NCBI GenBank assembly: GCA_017499595.2
Contig: CM039001.1
Span: 496,001-560,000 of the forward strand
DNA length: 64,000 nucleotides
DNA from: Psilocybe cubensis
Lineage: Eukaryota
Direction: 5' to 3'
Of this stretch, positions 458 to 42,664 are shown in pieces (positions within the stretch are counted from its first letter, which is position 1; each line of letters opens with the position of its first letter). The notes beneath the pieces are model-generated. The model did no database searches. It saw only the letters and a program-made list of their open reading frames with translations, and was not told the origin of the DNA. The translations under genes and the position numbers were made by a program.

Positions 458-1151
458 CACTTTGGCGCTTTCTGTTGTTACCTGTGTAATGTGAAATTTA
501 CGAATGATTTTTGTTTATAGTTAGTTATGATGTGATGTTCACCACTGTACCGTACTCTTTTTCTTCGATCGTTGATGAAATATTTGACTTAAATACGGGT
601 CCGGCATTCAAGTCATAAATCACAATGATTCTGACGCTCGATACCATCTTACCATCTGATATAGTAGATAAAGATGAAAAGGCAGATAAACTTCAATTAG
701 AAATAAACGGGATAATTGACGAAGCAAATTCTTGTGTGCGCAGCATGGGGCGCTTCGCTTTGATAGCTGTGGACGCCATGACCCGGCTAGGAATGGCAAT
801 GTTACCGTTGCCGATGTCAATGCTGTCAACCCAATAGGCGCCGAACCTGAGGCTGGGACCCACCTCTGATTTACCATCTTGTAAGGTGTACATAACTTGA
901 ACAATGTTACAGGTCCTAAAATTTCAAAGCTTCGAACTAATCATCCATGCAACAATTCCTTTCCTTTCAAAGCTACAGCATACACAGCATACTTGAGAGC
1001 GAGTTTGTTTCTATCCAATCCACTGAAATTGTATCCCACTGAGCACAAGCACAACATCGTCATGAAAAAAAAAGCAACCGATCGCAAAAACAAGAAAAAA
1101 TTCATCAGATCATCCTCGTTCCTCATGCACGCACATACACCTCCCCTCGAT

Positions 1152-4100
1152 CTACCGCACGCCTGTAGGCGGCACCCACTCCGGCACCTTCCCCCACCCA
1201 AACCTCTCCGCAGCCCACGACTCCTTCGCCCACCCAGGCTGCATATCCGTATACACCCCCTCCGGCTGCGGGAGCATCGCGTCATACGGCGTCGTGCCGG
1301 GGATATACCGGAACTTGCTCTGCGAGGGCGAGGCAGAGGCTTGGAGGAGAGGGGTGAAGTCCAGCGCGAGCGCGGAGGATGCGGCGGCTGGTTTGGGTAC
1401 AGAGCCGAAAGAGTTACTACTAGAGGCGGTGGTGAATGAAGAGGGGAAGGCGGGGTTGGATGCACTCGTCGGCGTGTCCATCGAGACGCTCGTCGACGGT
1501 GCCGTGCTTCCGAACGGTCCCGCCCCGCCTCCAAATACAGACCCCGTATTGTTCGCAAGGTTCCCAAACGCACTCTGCGTCTGTGCAGGCTGGCCAAATG
1601 CACTCGGCTGCCCGAACACGCTGCCGCCCGTCTGCTGTTGCTGACCAAACGCACTGGGCTGGCCGAACACGCTTCCTCCCGTCGTCGCCTGCTGCTGCTG
1701 CTGCTGTTGTTGTTGTTGAGTAGGCTGTCCAAACGACCCCTGCCCAAACACACTCCCGCCAGTATTCTGCGCCGCACCAGCACCAGCACCAAGCCCGCTA
1801 AACGCACTTTGCCCAAACACACTCCCGCTTGGGTTCGTCGCCGATGCCTGGGCCGGCTGCCCAAATGCGCCTGTCGTACTAGCAGGCTGGCCAAATGCAC
1901 CCGTAGTTGCAGCAGGTTGTCCAAACGCCCCTGTCGTACTGGCAGCTGGCTGTCCAAACGCGCTGGTCGTAGGCTGTCCAAACGCACCCGTTGTAGATTG
2001 GGCGGGCTGCCCAAATGCACCCGTCGTGCTGGCAGGTTGACCAAATGCACTCGTCGTGCTGGCAGGTTGGCCAAACGCACTTGTTGTGGTTGCAGGCTGA
2101 CCAAACGCGCTTGTTGTGGTTGTAGGCTGACCAAACGCGCTTGCTGTGGTTGCAGGCTGGCCAAACGCACTCGTCGTGCTGGCAGGCTGCCCAAATGCAC
2201 TCGTCGTGCTAGCAGGTTGCCCAAACGCATTCGTCGTACCAGCAGGCTGGCCAAACGCGCTTGTAGTAGTAGTAGTCGGTTGTCCAAACGCGCCAGTAGC
2301 CGTCGTCGTGGGCTGTCCGAACGCCGGCTGTCCAAACACATTTCCCCCTCCTCCTCCTGCCCCGGCACCACCACCAAACGCACTAAAGGCATTACCCCCA
2401 CCCCCACTTGCCCCTCCACCAAATACGCTCCCCGAGTTGGGGTTGCTAGCATTTGCAGCGGCAGCAGCTGCTGCGAACGGGCTCGAGCCGCCCACACCAC
2501 TGAACGCGCCGAACCCCGTCGCGGGTTTGATCAGCCCACCCCCAGCACCAGCGCCAGCAGCTTGGCCAAACGCGGACGGCTGACCAAAGACTGAGCCGCT
2601 CGGGTTAGTGGTTGTGGTCGACGTTGTACTTGAAGGCTGGCCAAAGGCAGACGGCGTCGTCGTCGCCGTGTTCGTTTGTTGCCCGAACGCAGATGGCTGG
2701 CCGAACGCCGGTTGGCCGAATGCGGAGGTCGTTGTCGTTGTGGCTGGTTTGGTGCCGAAGGCGGATGTGCCGCCAAAGGGCGAGTTCGTCGTGGCCAGGT
2801 TTCCAAACGCTGTTTTCCAACAAGAAAAAGATAGAATGAGTTAGGGTCAATGTTATACAGGTAAAATGTATGCAGTGCGTACCTCCTCCTCCTCCTCCCA
2901 ACGCAGACCCAGTTGCGTTCGTGTTCGAAGTAGAATTAGTATTCGAACTCGACGCCCCCCACCCCGACCCGCTCGGTTTGCTCTCATTGCTTCCCCACCC
3001 ACTTCCACCCGCACCGCCCCATCCAGAGCCAGACGCCCCGCCCGGCGTAGGACTCGGGGAGCTCCAGCCCTTGTTGTCTCCCCAGCCCTTGTTGTCTCCC
3101 CAGCCCTTGCCGTCTCCCCAGCCTTTGCTGTCTCCCCAGCCCGACTTGTCGTTGTCGCCCCACCCCGGGGACTTGGTTCCCTCGCGCCCCCAGCCGCCGC
3201 CTGTGGTGTTGCTGCTGCCCCAGCCCGAGGTGGATGGGCCGGCAGTATTGGCGGTGGAAGAGGAGGAGGCCTTGTTGGCGCTGGCGGCTTCGAGTACGGC
3301 TGTGATTTTGCTTTGCTTGTATGCTTGCTCGTATGCTTGTTCTGAGTTTGCGCGTGCGTTCTATGAAACCGGAGAGGAAAGGGGGTTAAGAGGATGAATG
3401 AAAAGGGGTGGATAGAAAATACAGATTGGTTTAGATTGACAAACAATAGCACGAAATAGATAGAGGAAAGAACAACGCACAGCGAGGGCCTGATTCGCAG
3501 CTTCGATCCTGCTCGATTCATAATTTGTCTACCCAAAAGAAAAACCCGTCAAACACTCGGCGAAGCGAACGAGACAGCACGAAAACCCCTACATATTCGG
3601 CCAGCGTGCCGCTGCTTCGCGCGGCGTACGCTTTGACACGGAGCTCCTCGAAGCTCTCGTCTAACCCTGCCACGAGGAGCGGCTCGTGCTTGTAGGGGGC
3701 ATACGAGGACAGTGGCCAGCTCGGCTTTTCAGTCGCAGGGTTCAGGTCGTTGGCTATGTTCGCTGCACTGTATTTATACAAGTAAATTGAGAATCGCTTG
3801 CTTTGTAGGTGTTCAGCGAGAGGCACACGGACTTGTAAGGCAAAGCTAGCTTCCCCGAGCCTGAATTGGCAGGCTTGTTCCAAAGATTGCTGCCTGATAT
3901 CGACGTAGGCATCGATCGCAAAGGTGGTGGGTGTTCGAGTTGAAGAGGTAAAAAGAAGAAGAGCCAAGAAATCAGAAATCAATTAGGATTTGCATTACAC
4001 TATAGCGAGTGGCCCTAGCACACACCTCCTCCGCCGCCGCCGAATTGGGGCAGCGCATTTGCGGGGTGTTCGTTCCTGCACGAGTTGCCGAAGCGACAGG

Positions 4101-4246
4101 TCCCCCGCAGAAAGTACTGACACACAGTCTGTGGATGGTGAGCGCTTATTCGCCGTACATTAGAGTTGGACTGACCATTAGATTTAGGTTCAAAGGAGAG
4201 AAACACGCCGTTTGGATCCTGATAGCATCGATTACATAACCATCAT
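1152..4246 (-). CDS. Amo1/Nup42/NUPL2-like nucleoporin: N-terminal CCCH zinc finger, GW-repeat exon, long FG-repeat region (spliced)
   Basis: Zinc finger TVCQYFLRGTCRFGNSCRNEH (4128-4066), then the Amo1-like block DLNPATEKPSWPLSSYAP...DESFEELR. Dozens of AFGQP repeats follow, and the C-terminus FGWGKVPEWVPP resembles the Nup42 Gle1-binding tail. The start ATG at 4246/4243 is inferred from a GT...CAG intron (4240-4129). Confidence 0.8.
1845..2335 (-). repeat. Coding tandem repeat (about 30-bp units) encoding AFGQPASTT-type FG repeats
   Basis: Repeated ccaaa(c/t)gc...gcagg(c/t)tg units on the + strand translate to AFGQP(A/T)(S/T)TT on the - strand. Confidence 0.9.
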
Positions 4247-4296
4247 TTTCTGACCTCAACGCCCTCCAGCCTTGCTCATCATCGCCATCGACGACA

Positions 4297-6172
4297 ATGA
4301 AGGCGGACGAGTCGACCCCGACACCGACCCCAACACCGCAGACGCCCGCGCCCGTTGTTCAGACGTACACCTCCCAATGGGCCTCTACACGTACGTCCCC
4401 CTTTTGACAAGTCTCACCACAAACCTGCTCACATCGTCCAGCGATCCAGCAGCCCGGGCAGCACCCAACGTAGAGCACCTTCACACTCTCCAGAATACCA
4501 ACGCTGACGACTGTAATACAGGGCATCTTACTACCAACCGTATACATCGCACTACCCACAGGCTGCATATGCCACCCACTACCAGGCCTACGCTCCACCA
4601 CAGACGCCCACTGCCACCACGTCCACAACACAGCAGCAGCAGGCCGCTGCTGCGCGCCCGACGACGACGACACCTGCACCGACAGCTGCATACCAGACGA
4701 GCACGTACAATCTTAGCACGGCTGCCGCGAACACGACGACAACTGCCAATGCTGCGAGCAGTAGCAGTAATAATAACAGTGGCGGTATGGATACGGCGGA
4801 TGTCGCTACGCTCAACGATGCCCTGGGAAGTGCAGGCGTCGATCTTCGCGTACGTCGTGCTCAAATATCCTTTGTTTCCATCTCCAATCTAACTGGCCTC
4901 CTTTACTGAAAGGCCGAGGAAGAATCCCTTCAACGTTCCTCCGACCTCTCTCACCCACTCACATCCTCACTGCACCATTCCCACAGCTACCACCGTCCAT
5001 ACGAAGACCGCACCCGCAAGGCTCCCCAACCACCGCACTGCTTCCCGACACATGTGATCGGTCCAACCATGCGCACCGTCGCGACGAACCACAAAGTCAC
5101 CCGCGTCACCGACGACGCCGTCAACTACCTCGCCCTCGCCCTTCGCGCGCGCATACACGACCTCATCAAGGGCATGGTCGCCGCCGCGCGCCACCGCACA
5201 GATGCCCAATTCGACCGCCCCGCACACTTTTACGGCGACGAAAACGCAGTCGATCCCGCCGCTACCGCTGCATCTACATCTGCAACAGCAGTCATCAAAA
5301 TTGAAGTCGACGGCGAGCTCGTCCCGGCGCCCGCGTCCGACAAGCCAAAAGACCGCACACCGATGTGGAGCATCGTCATCCGCAAAGACATATCCAAGCA
5401 GCTCGCCGCGCTCGAGAAGATCGAGCGCGAGGAAGAGCTTCGCGCGCGGAAGGAAAGGAAAGAGCGCGCAGAGCTCACCGCTGCACATGCCGCCGCGCTC
5501 GCCGCACAAGCATCAGGTATGGCATCTGGCTCAACAGCATACGGTGCAGGCGCCGCCGGCGGGGCCGCTGGCTCCTCTGCCGCTGGTGCTGGTGCTGCAG
5601 GTGGGGACGGAGACGACGGCGATGGAGGCGCGAATCCCAAAAAGAAGCGTAAGAAGGATGGTCCGGGTGTGACGGCGCGCAACATGTCCGAAGACGTGCG
5701 CAAGAAGATGTCTAATGCGGTCGCGAGTCAGGCTGCGGGGCTCGGTGGACGGTATAGCTGGATGACGGCCGCGAATGCGGGCGCGGCTGCGACGCCCGTT
5801 AAGCCCAAGCCCGCTACTACTACTACTACTACTCCTAGTGCTACTACCACTCCTGCACCTACAGGGACGTCGGGCGGTGATGCAGCCGCAGCTGGCACTG
5901 GCACGGGTTCAACGGGGACGGCGGCGGCAGCAGCAACGACACCTACATCCTCCTGGGCACGGCCCTACATCCCGACCAAAAAACCCGGGTTCTCTTCTTC
6001 GCTCGCGTCCTCTGGCACTACCAATGGCACGGCGAACGGCACGGGTGGCAAAGAGGGCGAAGGCGACGCGGAGAGCAAGAAAATATCTGTCACAATGCGA
6101 GATGCCATGTTTGTCGTTGAGAAGGAAAGAGGCCACGGGGCGGGGAGGGGTGCCGCCCGTGGGTGGGTGTAG
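4297..6172 (+). CDS. TAF4: TFIID subunit TAF4 (spliced)
   Basis: ATG at 4297 (MKADESTPTPT...). The motif DVATLNDALGSAGVDLR|AEEE spans an intron at about 4850-4912. Histone-fold segment VNYLALALRARIHDLI, then MSNAVASQAAG and the C-terminal VTMRDAMFVVEKER. Confidence 0.88.
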
Positions 6173-17007: not shown

Positions 17008-18552
17008 CTAATCTCTGCAAACAAGTTTCATTGAACAAGGATCATCATAGAATGTCACTTTCAATCCTTCCTTCTGTAGAACTAAGAGTCTCCGAATATC
17101 ATACAGTAAAGAACGGCCGACACCACAGACCGAGACGGCTTTCAGATATTTCTTACCAGGAGCACCGTTCCATCGATATTCAATCATGGATGATAGCACT
17201 GGGTCGTCCGAGTCGACTTCCACACCGTCTTTGTCGTAGCCGAAAGACTCAAGCACGGGACATATACTAAACTCTCCCTTCGACGTGTCCCATGTTGTCA
17301 AGCATTTTGCAAAAGCATCGGTCAGCAAGTGTGGGCCATCGTCTTCCTGCTCGCAGTCATATGTAGAATGTAGTTCCAGTGACTTTAAATTTGGAAGCAA
17401 ACATAGAAACTCGAGCTTTTCTTGTTCTGTTGATTGATCCCGATCGAGTACGAGGTGTTCCAGCGTGAGCTCGCATCGTGAAATGAAAGTGATGAAGTCC
17501 TCCTGTATCCATTTACGATCACGGCGTAGGACAAGCTTATTGAGCAATGGAGCGCGTATGAGTGAGAGAATTCGAGTCAACGGAGAATTTCCTCGAATGT
17601 CATCTGCAACATAGCCTATTAAAGTCAATTCTCTTAAAAAAGGTAAATTTCTGATCCGGCTCTGTGCTGGTATCACGCCGAGTAGCCGCCCTGCGTTGCA
17701 CCTTTCCAGTGCCCTTGTCGATGAGAGAACGAGATACAGTTCCGATACAAAAATATAGCCTTCCAGGATTTCCAGATTTACTAGATTCCGAAAGTACATC
17801 TGCGTGTCATGAACTAAGACTGGCCTACCAGAAGTAGGCTGCCGCCTTATTAGTGTGTGCAGCTTTGGGGACATCTGCACCGTCCTCCGCACAAACGGGG
17901 CGAGGCCCTTATCGTATAGACCAATTTTGTATTCATCAGGGGAAGGATGCCTAACACTTCCCACGATTTCCAGAGTCTCTAGGATCGGCGCGTAATGTTT
18001 AACGAAGATAAGATCACTTGTCGCTCGCCACTGAAAACGTTTGGCGGGATTGCGACAACCGATGCAGGTGGTATTCAAGAGTTGGGCATCAATTCGCATT
18101 TTCTGCGCGCGGTGAATGTTTAGAGCGAAATTCCAGAATGCGGGCAGAGCATATCGTCGTTTTACAGCATCTCGAATGTTGGAGCTACTCGTCAGATAAA
18201 CAGGAGAGGCGTTGTTTCGGAGCGACGCAGTCGTATATGCGAGGTTGAGGGTGAGGGGTTTGGTAGATGCGCGCTTGAAGGCAAGAACGATGAGCTCTTG
18301 CTTTGGTGAACTGTTCCCGTGGCGATCGATTCTTAATGCGATATCGGTCCATAAATCTGGGATATCCGCAACTATGTTGTAAAACCTAGAGCAGACATGG
18401 CTTAATCGAAGAGAATTATCCACTACCCGACTTGATGTTGAGGCTATATCGATTTCTGGGTTTTCGAGGACTGCGATCTTGAATATCTCTTGCCAAACGT
18501 CTTCTGGGATCTGGTGAATGACCCAGTTTTTTGCAAGAGTCGTTGACCTCAT
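17008..18552 (-). CDS. Intronless F-box-like protein with an LRR-like C-terminal region
   Basis: 514-aa ORF. IHQIPEDVWQEIF...LSHVCSRFYNIVADIPDLWTDI is a typical agaric F-box-like N-terminus; LxxLxL repeats follow downstream. Confidence 0.8.
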   Translation of the reverse strand: MRSTTLAKNWVIHQIPEDVWQEIFKIAVLENPEIDIASTSSRVVDNSLRLSHVCSRFYNIVADIPDLWTDIALRIDRHGNSSPKQELIVLAFKRASTKPLTLNLAYTTASLRNNASPVYLTSSSNIRDAVKRRYALPAFWNFALNIHRAQKMRIDAQLLNTTCIGCRNPAKRFQWRATSDLIFVKHYAPILETLEIVGSVRHPSPDEYKIGLYDKGLAPFVRRTVQMSPKLHTLIRRQPTSGRPVLVHDTQMYFRNLVNLEILEGYIFVSELYLVLSSTRALERCNAGRLLGVIPAQSRIRNLPFLRELTLIGYVADDIRGNSPLTRILSLIRAPLLNKLVLRRDRKWIQEDFITFISRCELTLEHLVLDRDQSTEQEKLEFLCLLPNLKSLELHSTYDCEQEDDGPHLLTDAFAKCLTTWDTSKGEFSICPVLESFGYDKDGVEVDSDDPVLSSMIEYRWNGAPGKKYLKAVSVCGVGRSLLYDIRRLLVLQKEGLKVTFYDDPCSMKLVCRD

Positions 18553-19058
18553 CGGGGGAGATAAAGAAGAAAATGAGGTTTTTTATGGGCGATTTGTGGA
18601 TGAGGAACAAAGCTTCTGTAGGCATCAAAGAATACCTATATAGGTGTCGTTCTGTCAAAAGTACACATGACTGTGAGATTCAAACACCGGCGAAATAAGA
18701 TGATAAACCTCATCCGGCCAAAGTAAACAAAATTGAGTCAATCTGATACCCCGGACTCTCAGTGGGATTATTTGTGTTTATGAACAGCCACAAACCGTAA
18801 ACAAAAAATTAATGCCACGATGTATGATGCCTTGAGCCCTCGCAGAATTTTGTCAAGTTGCACACTTTCAAAACGTAAATTCAGTCTGAATGGTAGAGGG
18901 AGAAATAATGACTGTCGTATATCGCCTGGTGGCACAGAAAAGGTGCACCTTGTACGAAATGAAATTATGGGAAGGACATGAAGAACAAGAGCACCTCGTT
19001 GTTCGAGGTAAGTTTCGAGCGAACGGGTGGTGACCCCAACACGTGAAGCAGGTTTAGG

Positions 19059-29294: not shown

Positions 29295-29858
29295 AACGGT
29301 GAAACGGTGATACTCGAAAAGTTAAAGTTGGAAGTTAAAGTGACTAGCCCCTGTGTTCAGGCAAAAATATAACGAAGCGAGGTGGAGAGGATGATCTTAT
29401 GTCCGAAAAAGCGTATCGGGATTATGTAGTCCGAACAACAGCGATCTGTAAAAAAAAATTAAAAGTGAATGTGACTCGTTCAGGAGGTACATATAAGATC
29501 CCCCGGGTTATTCCCCGTGTCGGTGTTTGTTTCCTTGTTCGCTGACTCTCATCATACGCAAAAATCAAAAATCATCGGTGCACTGCACTGTTTGTAGGTA
29601 TGGGTTTTGTTTGTGGGATGGATGGCAAGGAGGGGGCGCTAATGGGTCTGTTAGTTTATCAGATTGCTGATAAGCGCGTCTATCACGTGTTGCGAAACTA
29701 GGTAAAGGATCATCTCGATTGCTGGAACGCATAGCGTGAGTCTCCGAGTTTTTTTGTTCTTTTTTATCTTTTGCCCCCTTCCCCTTCCTGCCTTCCTTTC
29801 CCTACCCCTCCCTTCCTTTCTTTCCTTTCTACCCCTCCCCCTCCCTCATACACATTCA

Positions 29859-31476
29859 ATGTCGATGTCGGACGCTGCGAGGACGACGACGACGAGGACA
29901 CGAACGCCGCCTAAGCGCACCTTCTCGGATGTCGAACTCGACCTCGACCAACTCGCCGAGTCATTCGACGTCCCTCCCTCCACGTCCTCCTCCGCGTCAT
30001 CAGCCATGGCCATAGCCTCCTCCTCCGCATCAGCCTCCTCCTCCTCCACGTTCGCGTCTCCCTGCCCTCCTCACCCCGCAACGATCCTAATTACTGACTC
30101 CCCCGCGTCCAGATCCAAAGCGACACTACTACTCACCTCAAAGCAAAAGCCCAAACACCCGCACCCGCGCACAAGCATGCAGCACCCCTCCTCGTCTGCG
30201 CCTATCAAGGTAGGCGTGCTCGGCGCCACGGGCACCGTAGGCCAGCGCTTCCTCACGCTCCTCGCTGCGCACCCGTGGTTCGCTGTCGATGCGCTCGGCG
30301 CGTCCCCGCGCTCCGCGGGGAAGAAGTATAAAGATGCGGTCAGTTGGAAGCAGAGCACGCCTATCCCGCAGGGCGTTAGGGATGTGGTTGTGCGAGAGTG
30401 TAGGCCGGAGAATTTCGCGCAGTGTAAGATTGTGTTTTCGGGGCTGGATGCGGATGTTGCTGGGGAGATTGGTAAGTCCACCTTTTTCCTTTTGTTTTTT
30501 GTGATTTGTGATGTGTGTGTGATGTGTGGGGTGGGGGAGTGGGGTGGGGTGATTGTGATAAGATAAGATGCTGATCGCATACACACTCTTTTTTTCTCAT
30601 GGGTGTTTTACAGAGGAAGCGTTCCGCGCCGCGAATCTGGCCGTCTTCTCCAACGCGAAGAATTTCAGGAGGGACCCACACGTCCCGCTCATCGTCCCGC
30701 TCGTGAACCCGCACCATCTGTCGATCATCCCGCAGCAGCAGGCGCTGTTCTCGCCGGCGCTGACGTCCGGGTTCATCGTGACCAACGCGAACTGCTCGAC
30801 GACGGGGTACGTCATCCCGCTCGCGGCGATGGAGAAGGCGTTTGGCCCGCTTGAGTGTGTGATGGTTACTACCCTCCAAGCGATCTCGGGCGCGGGGTAT
30901 CCTGGTGTGCCGAGCCTTGATATCCTCGACAACGTCATCCCGTATATATCAGGCGAGGAGGAGAAGATCGAGTGGGAGACGCTAAAGATTCTAGGTGGGA
31001 TCAGCACGAAGGAGTCGGAGGTTACCAGCGCGGACGGGCAGCAGGTGGTGAAGAAGGAAGTGAAGACGTTCGACATGCACGCCGCGCACCCGTTGCGCGT
31101 GTCGGCGTCGTGCAACCGCGTGCCAGTGATCGACGGGCACACCGAGTGCGTGTCTGTGAGGTTCGCGAGGAGACCACCGCCGTCGCCGCAACAGGTCCGC
31201 GAGGCGCTCGCGGCGTACACGCCCGAGGCGCAGGCGCTCGGATGCCCGTCGGCGCCGTGCAGGGCGATTGTGGTGCATGAGGAACCGGACAGGCCGCAGC
31301 CGCGCTTGGATAGGTATTATCAGGACGGCGCGGGGGTGTCGGTGGGGAGGGTGAGGCAGTGTCAGGTGCTGGATGTCAAGTTTGTGGTTTTGGCGAATAA
31401 TGTGTCGATTGGTGCTGCGACGAGTAGTATTATTAATGCGGAGTATGCGGTGTTGAAGAATGTTGTGCAGTTGTGA
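29859..31476 (+). CDS. HOM2: Aspartate-semialdehyde dehydrogenase (start at 29859 or 30177; one intron at about 30472-30613)
   Basis: [25 protein letters not shown], catalytic [31 protein letters not shown] and QPRLDR. Confidence 0.95.
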
Positions 31477-41095: not shown

Positions 41096-42094
41096 CTAAC
41101 CATCGCCAACAACGTCAGCATCGGGGAGTAGCCACCTAAAGGTAACACTCATCCGAGTTCTGCGGTCGATCCAGGTGCCGGCAGGCTCTAGACTCTCTGA
41201 AGCGGAGGCGGTAGCAACAAAATCCCTCCGTTTCTTATCAATTCCATGCGTCCAGCAATACCGCGCATCTTCGGAGAGAACAATCAGACTTCTTTCAGGC
41301 AGATAAAGATCCCAACGTGTGCAAGAGTCGTTTTGTTGGGGATCAACTTTGTCGAAACGCATGACTGAGCCGCTTGAAAAGCTGACTCCAATAATTCCAT
41401 CGCCATACCGCCCGAGGAGGTCAACGTGAGGAGTTATGCCCTCCCCTGGCTGATACAAATTTATAATAGCTTGTCGGGCTCTTGTTGGGCAAGCTGGGAA
41501 TAGGACATCGTAGGTATCAGGAGGTACGACAGGTCGAAGCAACGAGGATATCTGGTCCAAAAGCTCCAATAAAATAGGAGGAAGACCTGAACTACTGGAT
41601 GCCAGGGTCTCCTTCGGAGGCAGAAAGCGCCCAAAAAGCATCACCTGGTTATCTGCAGGTGATGTGAAATATGTCTTCATACAGAAAGACACGACCTCGT
41701 CGGCGAGCTCCACGGGAAGAATGACCGAGGGATCAAAGTAAAGACCTTGAATTGGCGGGCCATTTCTGTGTGCCATTAATTTATCTTCATCCAAATCGAT
41801 AGAGATACGCGGTGAAGAATATCGTTCTTCGTCTAATAAGTCGTTAAATAATGAACCGGAATCGGAGCTAGAAAACAGAGAATGCATATCATCGTGGTCT
41901 TCTCCATTGTTGGTCTCCGACGAGACAAGTCCTGAATTTAAGTTCGAGGGTATTTCGATTCGCAGTAGCCGTGGCCGTTTATTTGCAGTTATAACAAGGG
42001 CTGAACCGTCTTTCAGACACACTTCCAGAGTGCGCTCTGATTTGGAAAGACTTTGGGTCCGTTTCCGTTTGAGATCAGGTAGTGCCTGGTCCAC
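41096..42094 (-). CDS. AlkB-family Fe(II)/2-oxoglutarate dioxygenase (5' end uncertain)
   Basis: INLYQPGEGITPHVD (HxD), WTHGI (distal His) and RMSVTFR (2OG-binding arginines). Confidence 0.85.
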   Translation of the reverse strand: MDQALPDLKRKRTQSLSKSERTLEVCLKDGSALVITANKRPRLLRIEIPSNLNSGLVSSETNNGEDHDDMHSLFSSSDSGSLFNDLLDEERYSSPRISIDLDEDKLMAHRNGPPIQGLYFDPSVILPVELADEVVSFCMKTYFTSPADNQVMLFGRFLPPKETLASSSSGLPPILLELLDQISSLLRPVVPPDTYDVLFPACPTRARQAIINLYQPGEGITPHVDLLGRYGDGIIGVSFSSGSVMRFDKVDPQQNDSCTRWDLYLPERSLIVLSEDARYCWTHGIDKKRRDFVATASASESLEPAGTWIDRRTRMSVTFRWLLPDADVVGDG

Positions 42095-42664
42095 TATGGT
42101 TTACACCAGTAGGGATATGATGAATCACATTTGGCGCTTACCATGGTTTTGCTTGAATCAAAAAAACAAAACCTATGAGCTGGTGATGGTCGAGAAGCAA
42201 AATGAAATTGCGATCTGACTGCGGAGTTCGAAGAGAAGAAAGCGTTCAGTCTCCGCTTGAAGGTTTACATCTCTCCTTTCTTTTACCTTGTAGGTTATAT
42301 ATGGACTCCGTGTCTGAGAAGCAGAAATGACTATTTTTCCAGTAATTTTCCAAAGATATTTTCAAAATAACCACCAACTTGTCTCTTGAACTCAGGTTGC
42401 TTGAGATTAACCTACGACAGGGGGATTACCTAATAGTAATAGGACCATATCGGCATTTTGGAAGTCGACCCGGGTAACCTGAATTGCCGGTGCATCGTCC
42501 AATCCAAGCACTTCCAAGCCTCACCTTGGAACCGCCCTCGACGGCGAATTCTTTTCCGAGCGATACTGGAAATCACACTCATTTAAAGCTGGTCTTCAAA
42601 AACTTGCAACCACCCTTTTATAACTTTGATACCTTAGATCTTCTCAATCCATTCCTGAAAGATC

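What the first reader, a model, noticed from the sequence alone, without database searches (positions are those of the whole stretch)
2883..3360. Hidden GW/WG-repeat (Argonaute-hook-like) exon inside an Amo1/Nup42-like nucleoporin
Seen: the - strand exon 3360-2883 reads ...SGWGSSNTTGGGWGREGTKSPGWGDNDKSGWGDSKGWGDGKGWGDNKGWGDNKGWSS...SGWGGAGGSGWGSNESKPSGSGWGA. That is 11 GW motifs in about 95 aa, in a G/S/D/N/K-rich context. The ORF track does not show this frame, but splice phases fix it: phase 0 from the upstream ALA|NAR junction and phase 1 into the g|cg-ttt-gga FG exon. Known: GW/WG repeats in this composition bind Argonaute in GW182/TNRC6, plant NRPE1/SPT5L and S. pombe Tas3, and S. pombe Amo1 is linked to heterochromatin at the nuclear periphery. 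Inference: a nucleoporin carrying its own Ago hook could tether RNAi complexes to the nuclear pore or to mRNA export. I do not know of this architecture being described.
Basis: partly seen in the sequence, partly recalled or inferred. Interest (0 to 1): 0.7.

Follow-up and report, generated by a model that had tools for sequence, protein, structure and literature searches.

The report
Tryptophan-repeat module in a mushroom nucleoporin
A mushroom-forming fungus has added a floppy stretch of eleven glycine-tryptophan motifs, which looks like the hooks that bind Argonaute silencing proteins, to its Nup42-type nuclear-pore protein; the stretch is real and expressed but found only in this lineage, and its partner is untested.

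Summary
Exon 3360-2883 (minus strand) encodes 11 G-W motifs (10 are G-W-G) in 94 residues; 0 of 100,000 shuffles match this. Transcript-like contigs of two runs from one study skip exactly the flanking introns. Skipping the exon would shift the frame.

The gene is a 7-exon, 841-aa Nup42/NUPL2/Amo1-type nucleoporin: CCCH finger, conserved core, GW block, about 40 FG repeats, conserved tail.

The GW block is a lineage-specific gain. None of 41 FG-rich relatives and none of 65 informative metagenome loci has one; they run straight into FG repeats.

The block is not a simple F-to-W swap. It has 17% charged residues and no F, whereas the FG domain has 0.6% charged residues and no W. With the published WG/GW matrix it scores 119-147 half-bits, against at most 14 in relatives. 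It is predicted disordered.

Argonaute binding is plausible from sequence but untested. The organism's genome, and so its Argonautes, could not be examined.

My odds: Argonaute or other Trp-pocket docking array about 0.4, FG-like variant 0.25, neutral expansion 0.2.

The parts
4176..4178 (-). Exon 1: the ATG only, followed by a 47-nt intron
   Evidence: Model. It gives an N-terminus of the same length and pattern (M-x-V-C-Q-Y/F-F-L-R-G) as the orthologues. It is not confirmed by transcript contigs: X2 record 11 starts at 4136, 8 nt inside this intron.
4026..4128 (-). Exon 2: CCCH zinc finger
   Evidence: Pfam zf-CCCH_4 (PF18044) E 6.5e-7, 29.4 bits, above the cut-off of 24.6. The joint 3892>4025 is seen in X1 and X2.
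3833..3893 (-). Exon 3: short linker
   Evidence: Joints 3767>3833 and 3892>4025.
3593..3767 (-). Exon 4: conserved family core (K-P-x-W-P-L-S-S-Y ... L-D-E-S-x-E-E-L-R)
   Evidence: phmmer found 188 relatives at E<=1e-3. Invariant columns are listed in alignment A1. Joints were seen on both sides.
3481..3528 (-). Exon 5: helical linker
   Evidence: Joints 3360>3481 and 3528>3593. It aligns with the orthologues.
2883..3360 (-). Exon 6: the GW exon (helix at residues 131-160, then a disordered part)
   Evidence: AlphaFold2 gives a helix over the first 30 residues and the rest at pLDDT about 39-54 with no secondary structure. Its length mod 3 is 1, so skipping it shifts the frame.
2950..3231 (-). 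GW array: 11 G-W(-G) motifs in 94 residues (model residues 174-267)
3064..3142 (-). 18-nt tandem repeat, 4.4 copies, 91% matches (K-G-W-G-D-N units): the young core of the array
   Evidence: Tandem Repeats Finder. The unit DNA is identical at synonymous sites.
2810..2882 (-). Intron 6 (73 nt), at the 3' edge of the GW module; no counterpart in the closest relatives
   Evidence: The joint 2809>2883 is seen in X1 and X2. The six closest loci examined have one long exon from the helical part through the FG repeats.
1398..2809 (-). FG-repeat domain (about 40 xFG, mostly S-A-F-G-Q-P; 0 W; 0.6% charged)
   Evidence: Pfam Nucleoporin_FG scores 27.8 bits, below the cut-off of 32.2.
1152..1289 (-). Conserved C-terminal tail (F-x-W-G-x-V/I-P-E-W-V/I-P-P ... 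R) and stop codon; presumed Gle1-binding end
   Evidence: The tail is conserved in the orthologues. There is no sequence match to any solved chain, so its role as a Gle1-binding motif is inferred from position only.

Best explanation
Shown: 4178-1152 (minus strand) is a 7-exon gene for an 841-aa Nup42/NUPL2(hCG1)/Amo1-type FG nucleoporin of an Agaricomycete. Exon 6 is expressed and is obligatory for the reading frame. It places a disordered array of eleven G-W(-G) motifs in G/S/D/N/K spacers between the conserved CCCH/helical N-terminal part and about 40 xFG repeats. The array, with the intron at its 3' edge, is a gain of this lineage. Its core grew by recent 18-nt tandem duplication. Its outer units have diverged at synonymous sites but keep G-W-G. 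Inferred: the array is a separate module, not a variant FG repeat. It displays multivalent tryptophan ligands from the cytoplasmic face of the pore and docks a protein with Trp-binding pockets. Argonaute/RISC is the leading candidate partner. That would hold silencing complexes beside the Gle1-Dbp5 site where exported mRNPs are remodelled. The placement of Nup42 at that site is from established knowledge of yeast and human Nup42, not tested here.
For: Anatomy and expression:
- Searches give the model and the transcript joints. Skipping exon 6 gives a stop 108 codons after the start of exon 5.

Family:
- CCCH finger, core and tail shared with the orthologues.
- One orthologue is named 'Nucleoporin-like protein 2' by its source.

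Separate module:
- The block has 17% charged residues and 0 F. The FG domain has 0.6% charged residues and 0 W.
- Nup98-type FG domains are reported to select against charge and tryptophan (PMC9918544, passage).
- Relatives show no G-W-G at all.

Ago-hook likeness:
- With the published WG/GW matrix (PMC2910046, Table 1) the block scores 118.8 half-bits for the core and 147.1 over residues 155-283. The best of 163 relatives scores 13.9. The paper's classes are medium 25-150 and strong >150.
- None of the eight disfavoured residues (V, F, H, C, Y, M, I, L) occurs in the 94 residues.
- 47 of 55 W pairs have 10 or more residues between them. This is the spacing stated for TNRC6 sites (PMC9262622, section 29).
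- The block is predicted disordered.

Constraint:
- The six outer units use different Gly codons around TGG yet keep G-W-G.

Plausibility:
- Fungal Argonaute is tethered perinuclearly in Neurospora meiotic silencing (PMC10411587, passages).
- Ago1 forms a complex with Gwo1 in the basidiomycete Cryptococcus (PMC6643885, passage).
- Amo1 is linked to heterochromatin at the periphery (PMC7464478, section 6.2).
Against: - The array is absent from all sampled orthologues. This covers 0 of 41 FG-rich relatives of 250 aa or more and 0 of 65 metagenome loci that reach the FG domain, out of 80 fetched. The relatives come from at least 18 named genera. It is therefore young and dispensable for Nup42 function in general.
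- Its core is a 91%-identical minisatellite, which could be neutral.
- MAFFT places the first two GWG units on the first two xFG units of the orthologues. An FG-like role is therefore not excluded.
- The compositional score is my re-implementation with a guessed extension threshold and without the paper's second (ics) filter, which is in supplements I could not open. The paper itself reports G/S-rich false positives such as hornerin.
- No Argonaute of this organism could be examined, and no binding evidence of any kind exists.
- The Gle1-binding nature of the tail was not confirmed by sequence.
Confidence: 0.4

Rival explanations
1. FG-like variant: the GW(G) units are aromatic-glycine stickers doing the same job as FG motifs (binding transport receptors or cohering with the FG phase). 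They would form a charged-spacer, non-cohesive sub-domain at the head of the FG domain.
For: The block sits exactly where orthologues begin their xFG repeats, and MAFFT aligns the first two GWG units to xFG. It lies in an FG nucleoporin. A GW meshwork has been likened to the FG meshwork (PMC4551936, discussion passage). Charged-spacer FG sub-domains exist in other nucleoporins (recalled, not from a call).
Against: There is no F in the block and no W in 40 FG motifs of the same protein. Relatives never use G-W-G. The spacer composition switches completely. FG domains of the Nup98 type are reported to select against W and charge. The protein already has more FG motifs (43) than any relative (0-38), so the block is an addition, not a replacement. 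F to W needs two base changes per codon.
Confidence: 0.25
2. Neutral low-complexity expansion: a minisatellite-driven insertion in a disordered linker that is tolerated and has no specific partner.
For: The block is lineage-specific. Its core is 4.4 copies of an 18-nt unit at 91% identity, with identical synonymous sites. Disordered regions of nucleoporins tolerate length change: a one-codon indel at 2654 is seen between strains or haplotypes.
Against: Six outer units have diverged in DNA, with different Gly and Ser codons, yet all keep G-W-G. TGG has no synonymous alternative, so drift would erode it. All 11 W are G-flanked (0 of 100,000 shuffles). All eight hydrophobic or disfavoured residue types are absent from 94 residues.
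Confidence: 0.2
3. Docking array for a different tryptophan-pocket protein, for example the CCR4-NOT module that binds tryptophans of the GW182 silencing domain, or another W-motif reader, linking export to mRNA decay rather than to small RNAs.
For: W-containing motifs in disordered regions are read by several machines. The GW182 silencing domain recruits CCR4-NOT (PMC4551936, introduction passage; the role of its tryptophans in that contact is recalled). The block's features do not by themselves specify Argonaute.
Against: There is no positive evidence for any such partner. The dense G-W-G context in G/S/N/D spacers is the signature used to find Argonaute binders specifically.
Confidence: 0.1

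Closest known systems
Nup42 / NUPL2 (hCG1) / S. pombe Amo1 nucleoporins
   Same: N-terminal CCCH finger, FG-repeat domain and short conserved C-terminal tail. There is clear orthology to Agaricomycete proteins, one of which is named 'Nucleoporin-like protein 2'.
   Different: It carries an extra 94-residue GW array and an extra intron that no sampled orthologue has. At 841 aa it is longer than the usual 470-630. Direct similarity to yeast or human Nup42 or to Amo1 was not tested, because no such sequence was in hand. The solved Gle1-binding motif was not matched.
GW/WG Argonaute-binding domains (GW182/TNRC6 N-terminus, plant NRPE1 and SPT5L tails)
   Same: Many G-flanked tryptophans in a disordered region rich in G, S, N and D and depleted of hydrophobic residues. 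The score with the published matrix is high, and W pairs are 10 or more residues apart.
   Different: It is shorter (94 aa, against 92-654 aa for predicted plant domains, abstract). It is hosted by a nucleoporin. Argonaute binding is not shown. K is more frequent and E less frequent than in the plant set.
Cryptococcus Gwo1 (partner of Ago1 in the P-body complex PRSC)
   Same: A basidiomycete precedent for a protein that travels with Argonaute (PMC6643885, passage). That Gwo1 is a GW-repeat protein is recalled, not from a call.
   Different: It has no relation to nucleoporins.
C. elegans GLH-1 (Vasa helicase with FG-type repeats that holds Argonaute granules at pores)
   Same: It links a small-RNA machine to the pore through a short aromatic-glycine repeat (PMC10411587, discussion passage).
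   Different: The logic is the mirror image. There, a silencing-granule protein carries pore-type repeats. Here, a pore protein carries silencing-type repeats.
Neurospora SAD-2/SAD-9 perinuclear tether of the SMS-2 Argonaute
   Same: It achieves what the novel reading proposes: a fungal Argonaute held just outside the nuclear envelope.
   Different: It uses a scaffold and a DEAD-box helicase, not a nucleoporin or GW motifs.

Membership tests
Nup42/NUPL2/Amo1 nucleoporin | FG-repeat domain | tested here: met
   43 FG in the model, 40 of them in the repeat domain. Pfam Nucleoporin_FG scores 27.8 bits on the window exon, below the cut-off of 32.2. PF13634 is precomputed on orthologue P0153.
Nup42/NUPL2/Amo1 nucleoporin | N-terminal CCCH zinc finger (NUPL2 type) | tested here: met
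   PF18044 scores 29.4 bits (cut-off 24.6) and PF00642 scores 26.6 bits (cut-off 20.5). The finger is at residues 4-22 of the model, as in the orthologues.
Nup42/NUPL2/Amo1 nucleoporin | C-terminal Gle1-binding motif | tested here: inconclusive
   The tail is strongly conserved among the orthologues. It has no sequence match to solved chains as a single sequence or as a profile. The only Nup42p chain hit is an FG peptide, 5xoj_E, at E 0.17.
Nup42/NUPL2/Amo1 nucleoporin | Orthology to named family members | tested here: met
   The exon-4 core finds 188 relatives. The Grifola frondosa orthologue is named 'Nucleoporin-like protein 2' by its source. The name is an annotation, not a test.
Nup42/NUPL2/Amo1 nucleoporin | Location on the cytoplasmic face of the pore | not testable with these tools
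   Needs microscopy.
GW/WG Argonaute-binding domain | Several G-flanked tryptophans | tested here: met
   11 W, all G-W and 10 G-W-G, in 94 residues.
GW/WG Argonaute-binding domain | Composition rich in G, S, W, N, D and poor in C, F, H, M, Y and aliphatics | tested here: met
   The matrix score is 118.8-147.1 half-bits, against at most 13.9 in relatives, and 0 disfavoured residues are present. The score is a re-implementation; the ics filter and the threshold are in supplements I could not see.
GW/WG Argonaute-binding domain | Intrinsic disorder | tested here: met
   AlphaFold2 on the single sequence gives pLDDT 39-54 and no secondary structure over the block. This is weak evidence, since no alignment was used.
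GW/WG Argonaute-binding domain | Tryptophan pairs 10 or more residues apart | tested here: met
   47 of 55 pairs. The criterion is from PMC9262622. Neighbouring W in the core are only 6 apart.
GW/WG Argonaute-binding domain | W-dependent binding to Argonaute | not testable with these tools
No complex prediction was attempted.
GW/WG Argonaute-binding domain | An Argonaute with Trp pockets in the same organism | not testable with these tools
   The genome is not held. The ten ORFs taken from the window's long open frames include no RNAi gene.
FG-repeat (as a reading of the GW block itself) | Phe-Gly motifs | tested here: not met
   0 F in the 94-residue block.
FG-repeat (as a reading of the GW block itself) | Spacer make-up like the protein's own FG domain | tested here: not met
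   17.0% against 0.6% charged residues. G 34% against 19%. A+T+Q 8.5% against 43%.

The most novel reading that the evidence does not exclude
A nuclear-pore protein has acquired its own Argonaute hook. The GW array on Nup42 would hold guide-loaded Argonaute at the cytoplasmic filaments, next to Gle1-Dbp5. Every exported mRNP would then be scanned by small RNAs at the moment it is stripped of export factors. This would be a one-protein solution to the perinuclear surveillance that Neurospora builds with SAD-2/SAD-9 and that animals build with nuage or P granules.
Probability: 0.3. Interest if true: 0.8.

Novelty: new variant of a known kind. Interest (0 to 1): 0.5.

Why it matters
Perinuclear placement of small-RNA machinery recurs across eukaryotes, but its physical link to the pore is usually indirect. 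A nucleoporin carrying a ready-made Argonaute-type docking array would be a direct link that is easy to test. It would also be a clean natural example of a disordered protein gaining a new interaction module by repeat expansion, with close relatives lacking the module as controls. If the array instead acts like FG repeats, it would be an unusual natural experiment on whether tryptophan can stand in for phenylalanine in the transport barrier. If it is neutral, it shows how closely a chance expansion can imitate an Ago hook, which is a caution for composition-based predictors.

Tried and rejected
Searches that found nothing:
- Word-indexed protein search with the GW exon against longer proteins: 6071 candidates, none at E<=1e-3.
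- Same tool with the C-terminal 122 residues: 1347 candidates, none.
- Same tool with exon 4 against longer proteins: only 2 hits, Crassisporium and Neolentinus.
- Protein atlas on the block: no usable hit.
- Earlier findings of this scan by place, sequence and words: nothing relevant.
- PDB by sequence with the tail: 0 hits.
- PDB with the GW exon: one chance-level hit to an RG-rich ribosomal protein tail, E 0.65.
- PDB with the orthologue profile: only FG nucleoporins and CCCH fingers.

Limits met:
- The own genome is not held. I could not look for Argonaute, Dicer, other GW proteins or a second Nup42 copy.
- No RNA holder is listed for the stretch. The spliced contigs of X1 and X2 were nevertheless informative.
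- Complex prediction was not used. No Argonaute sequence was available, and a stand-in from another host is not worth a job.

Ideas rejected:
- The tryptophans might come from a frame-shifted FG repeat. Off-frame FG DNA does read V-W-P/S/T-A every 10 residues (ORF 1879-2208), but the GW units have unrelated DNA.
- A GW-less isoform might arise by exon skipping. The exon length is 478 nt, so skipping gives a stop 108 codons after the start of exon 5, and retaining intron 6 also ends early.

Rows judged spurious or uninformative:
- P0126 and P0130, two hits, are spurious tandem-repeat ORFs.
- P0059 is a kinase fusion model.
- These three were kept in the counts but explain most of the stray W.
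- 15 of the 80 loci had fewer than 10 FG downstream (short flanks) and are uninformative.
- The five loci with 3-4 G-flanked W (L006, L011, L012, L021, L030) are off-frame or tail read-through, not GW arrays.
Full report
**What is there.** On the minus strand between 4178 and 1152 lies a seven-exon gene. All six introns are GT..AG and 47-132 nt long. The spliced product is 841 aa.
- Exon 2 encodes a CCCH zinc finger (PF18044, 29.4 bits, cut-off 24.6).
- Exon 4 encodes a conserved core.
- Exon 6 (3360-2883) is the exon of the finding.
- Exon 7 encodes about 40 xFG repeats, mostly S-A-F-G-Q-P, and a conserved tail.

**Is the exon real?** No run is on record as RNA. However, contigs of X1 and X2 (guessed RNA, both from one study, 95-99% identical to the window) contain joints at 2809>2883, 3360>3481, 3528>3593, 3767>3833 and 3892>4025. 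These are exactly introns 6, 5, 4, 3 and 2, each with CT..AC on the plus strand. The DNA-like run X4, from a second study, runs through the same places without joints.
- X1 has depth in all 30 bins, and no joint inside exon 6 was reported.
- Contigs cannot rule out rare isoforms. But exon 6 is 478 nt long, so skipping it gives a stop 108 codons after the start of exon 5, and retaining intron 6 also ends the frame early. A full-length protein must therefore contain the GW block.
- Intron 1, directly after the ATG, is not confirmed. One X2 contig begins 8 nt inside it. The model's N-terminus does match the orthologues in length and pattern.

**Is the motif more than chance?** The block has eleven W in 94 residues. 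All are preceded by G and ten are followed by G.
- None of 100,000 shuffles of the exon's own residues reached either count.
- It is the only GW-dense stretch in the six frames of the window.
- An 18-nt tandem repeat (3064-3142, 4.4 copies, 91% matches) encodes the central K-G-W-G-D-N units. These units share identical synonymous sites, so they are recent copies.
- The six outer units use different Gly and Ser codons around TGG yet keep G-W-G. I read this as modest evidence of constraint on the motif.

**What is the host protein?** An exhaustive phmmer search with exon 4 found 188 relatives at E<=1e-3, of which 150 were listed.
- Those that carry names are all Agaricomycetes: Coprinopsis, Jaapia, Crepidotus, Artomyces, Phlebopus, Grifola, Dentipellis, Mycena, Termitomyces, Pyrrhoderma, Cantharellus, Tulasnella, Amanita, Lactarius, Crassisporium and Neolentinus.
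- The Grifola protein is named 'Nucleoporin-like protein 2' by its source.
- Full-length relatives share the M-x-V-C-Q-Y/F-F-L-R-G finger, the K-P-x-W-P-L-S-S-Y ... L-D-E-S-x-E-E-L-R core, FG repeats and an F-E-W-G-x-I/V-P-E-W-V/I-P-P tail.
- I file the gene as the Nup42/NUPL2(hCG1)/Amo1 orthologue on this architecture. That the tail is the Gle1-binding motif is inferred from position only. Neither the tail nor an orthologue profile matched a solved Gle1-binding chain.

**Conservation test.**
- Of the 163 proteins fetched, 49 are 250 aa or longer and 41 of those have 10 or more FG.
- Their G-flanked W counts are 0 (15 proteins), 1 (23) or 2 (3). The maximum in any 100-residue window is 2, against 11 in the model. 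The single common one is the W-G of the conserved tail.
- A metagenome scan gave 80 Nup42-like loci, with at best 72% identity in exon 4. 65 of them reach a stretch with 10 or more FG downstream, and none has a GW array. The five loci with 3-4 G-flanked W are off-frame or read-through pieces.
- In the six closest loci examined, the helical A-R-N-N...K-Q-S-K-L segment continues in one long exon straight into xFG repeats. The same is seen in the protein alignment.

So the GW block and intron 6 at its 3' edge are gains of the window's lineage. No relative closer than about 70% identity in the core was available, so the age of the gain within that lineage is unknown.

**Is W just standing in for F?** MAFFT places the first two GWG units on the first two xFG units of the orthologues and treats the rest as an insertion. 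Against a simple swap:
- The block has 0 F and 17.0% charged residues with net charge 0. The protein's FG domain has 0 W and 0.6% charged residues.
- The W context is S/K-G-W-G-D/S-N/S. The F context is T-S-A-F-G-Q-P.
- The model has 43 FG motifs, more than any relative (0-38). The block is therefore an addition, not a replacement.
- Among the 41 FG-rich relatives, with 840 FG counted, the W that appear are the conserved N-terminal ones, gene-model artefacts or one non-G-flanked W. There is no G-W-G.
- Nup98-type FG domains are reported to select against charge and tryptophan (PMC9918544, passage).

**Ago-hook likeness.** I scored the protein with the published WG/GW composition matrix (PMC2910046, Table 1, read), using seed-and-extend from each GW/WG.
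- The block scores 147.1 half-bits over residues 155-283 with a drop threshold of 5. With thresholds of 8-10 it scores 172.3 and the domain runs on into the FG region. The 94-residue core alone scores 118.8.
- The paper's classes are weak <25, medium 25-150 and strong >150. The best relative scores 13.9.
- None of the eight disfavoured residue types occurs in the core.
- 47 of 55 W pairs have 10 or more residues between them. This is the spacing given for TNRC6 sites (PMC9262622, section 29).
- AlphaFold2 on the single sequence predicts a helix for the exon's first 30 residues and no structure for the rest (pLDDT 39-54).

Caveats:
- The extension threshold and the paper's second filter are in supplements I could not open.
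- The paper reports G/S-rich false positives.
- The same paper lists 'Similar to Nucleoporin like 2' of horse and dog as a weak candidate, score 8.95. A faint GW-like signal in this family has therefore been noted before.

**What it most likely does.**
- Shown: a real, expressed, obligatory, lineage-specific and disordered GW array in a Nup42-type nucleoporin, compositionally distinct from the FG domain and matching the Ago-hook signature.
- Inferred: it is a separate docking module for a protein with Trp pockets, with Argonaute as the leading candidate.
- The position of Nup42 on the cytoplasmic filaments with Gle1-Dbp5 comes from established knowledge of yeast and human Nup42, not from a test here. 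It would put such a partner where exported mRNPs are remodelled.
- Context from papers, as passages only: fungal Argonaute is held perinuclearly in Neurospora by SAD-2/SAD-9, and C. elegans GLH-1 uses FG-type repeats to sit at pores (PMC10411587). Cryptococcus Ago1 has a Gwo1 complex (PMC6643885). Amo1 tethers heterochromatin at the periphery (PMC7464478).
- My odds: about 0.4 for the docking reading, of which about 0.3 for Argonaute in vivo. The rivals are an FG-like sticker variant (0.25), a neutral minisatellite-driven expansion (0.2) and another W-pocket partner (0.1).

**What I could not do.** The organism's genome is not held. Argonaute presence, pocket conservation, other GW proteins, a possible donor of the module and a second Nup42 copy are all open. 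The ten ORFs scanned from the window's long open frames include no RNAi gene.

**Novelty.** Ten full-text searches were run. Those bearing on this question found no description of a GW-repeat module in Nup42, NUPL2 or Amo1 beyond the weak 2010 list entry. Subscription-only papers were not searched. I rate the finding as a new variant of a known kind: a known nucleoporin family carrying a known type of motif array in a combination not described.

Noticed in passing
window 4300-6170 (+): The divergently oriented neighbour is a TAF4 (TFIID subunit) gene: PF05236, E 8e-19, on ORF 4910-6169. A Q/T/A-rich N-terminal part lies upstream. Its start lies within a few hundred bases of the nucleoporin's start.
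   Followed up: partly
window 2810-2882 (-) and loci L001, L003, L005, L008, L010, L014: Intron 6 of the nucleoporin gene has no counterpart in the six closest relatives examined, which encode the helical segment and all FG repeats in one long exon. The GW module and this intron may have arrived together.
   Followed up: partly
window 4129-4175 (-): The predicted 47-nt intron directly after the ATG is not confirmed. One transcript-like contig of X2 starts at 4136, inside it. Without this splice there is no in-frame ATG.
   Followed up: partly
window 1000-4400, run X4: X4 holds both 99+% and 95-99% identical contigs over the same places, with doubled depth in some bins. The X1/X2 variants match one of the two sets at several sites. 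This looks like two haplotypes of a dikaryon. A one-codon insertion (CGT behind 2654) in the FG domain is shared by X1, X2 and X4.
   Followed up: no
window 1879-2208 (-), off-frame: The FG-repeat DNA read one base out of frame gives a regular V-W-P/S/T-A repeat (10 W in 100 aa). This is a reminder that W-rich periodic ORFs can be shadows of FG repeats. It is unrelated to the GW exon.
   Followed up: yes
window 29706-31473 (+); 41099-42100 (-); 17011-18582 (-): Other genes in the window: aspartate-semialdehyde dehydrogenase in two ORF pieces (PF01118, PF02774), a 2OG-Fe(II) oxygenase (PF13532) and a weak F-box-like protein. None is RNAi-related.
   Followed up: no
proteins P0152, P0153: The orthologues carry a precomputed Pfam family PF27634 that is not in the Pfam copy available here (exon 4 gave no hit). 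It probably models the conserved core, and its name might settle the family assignment.
   Followed up: no
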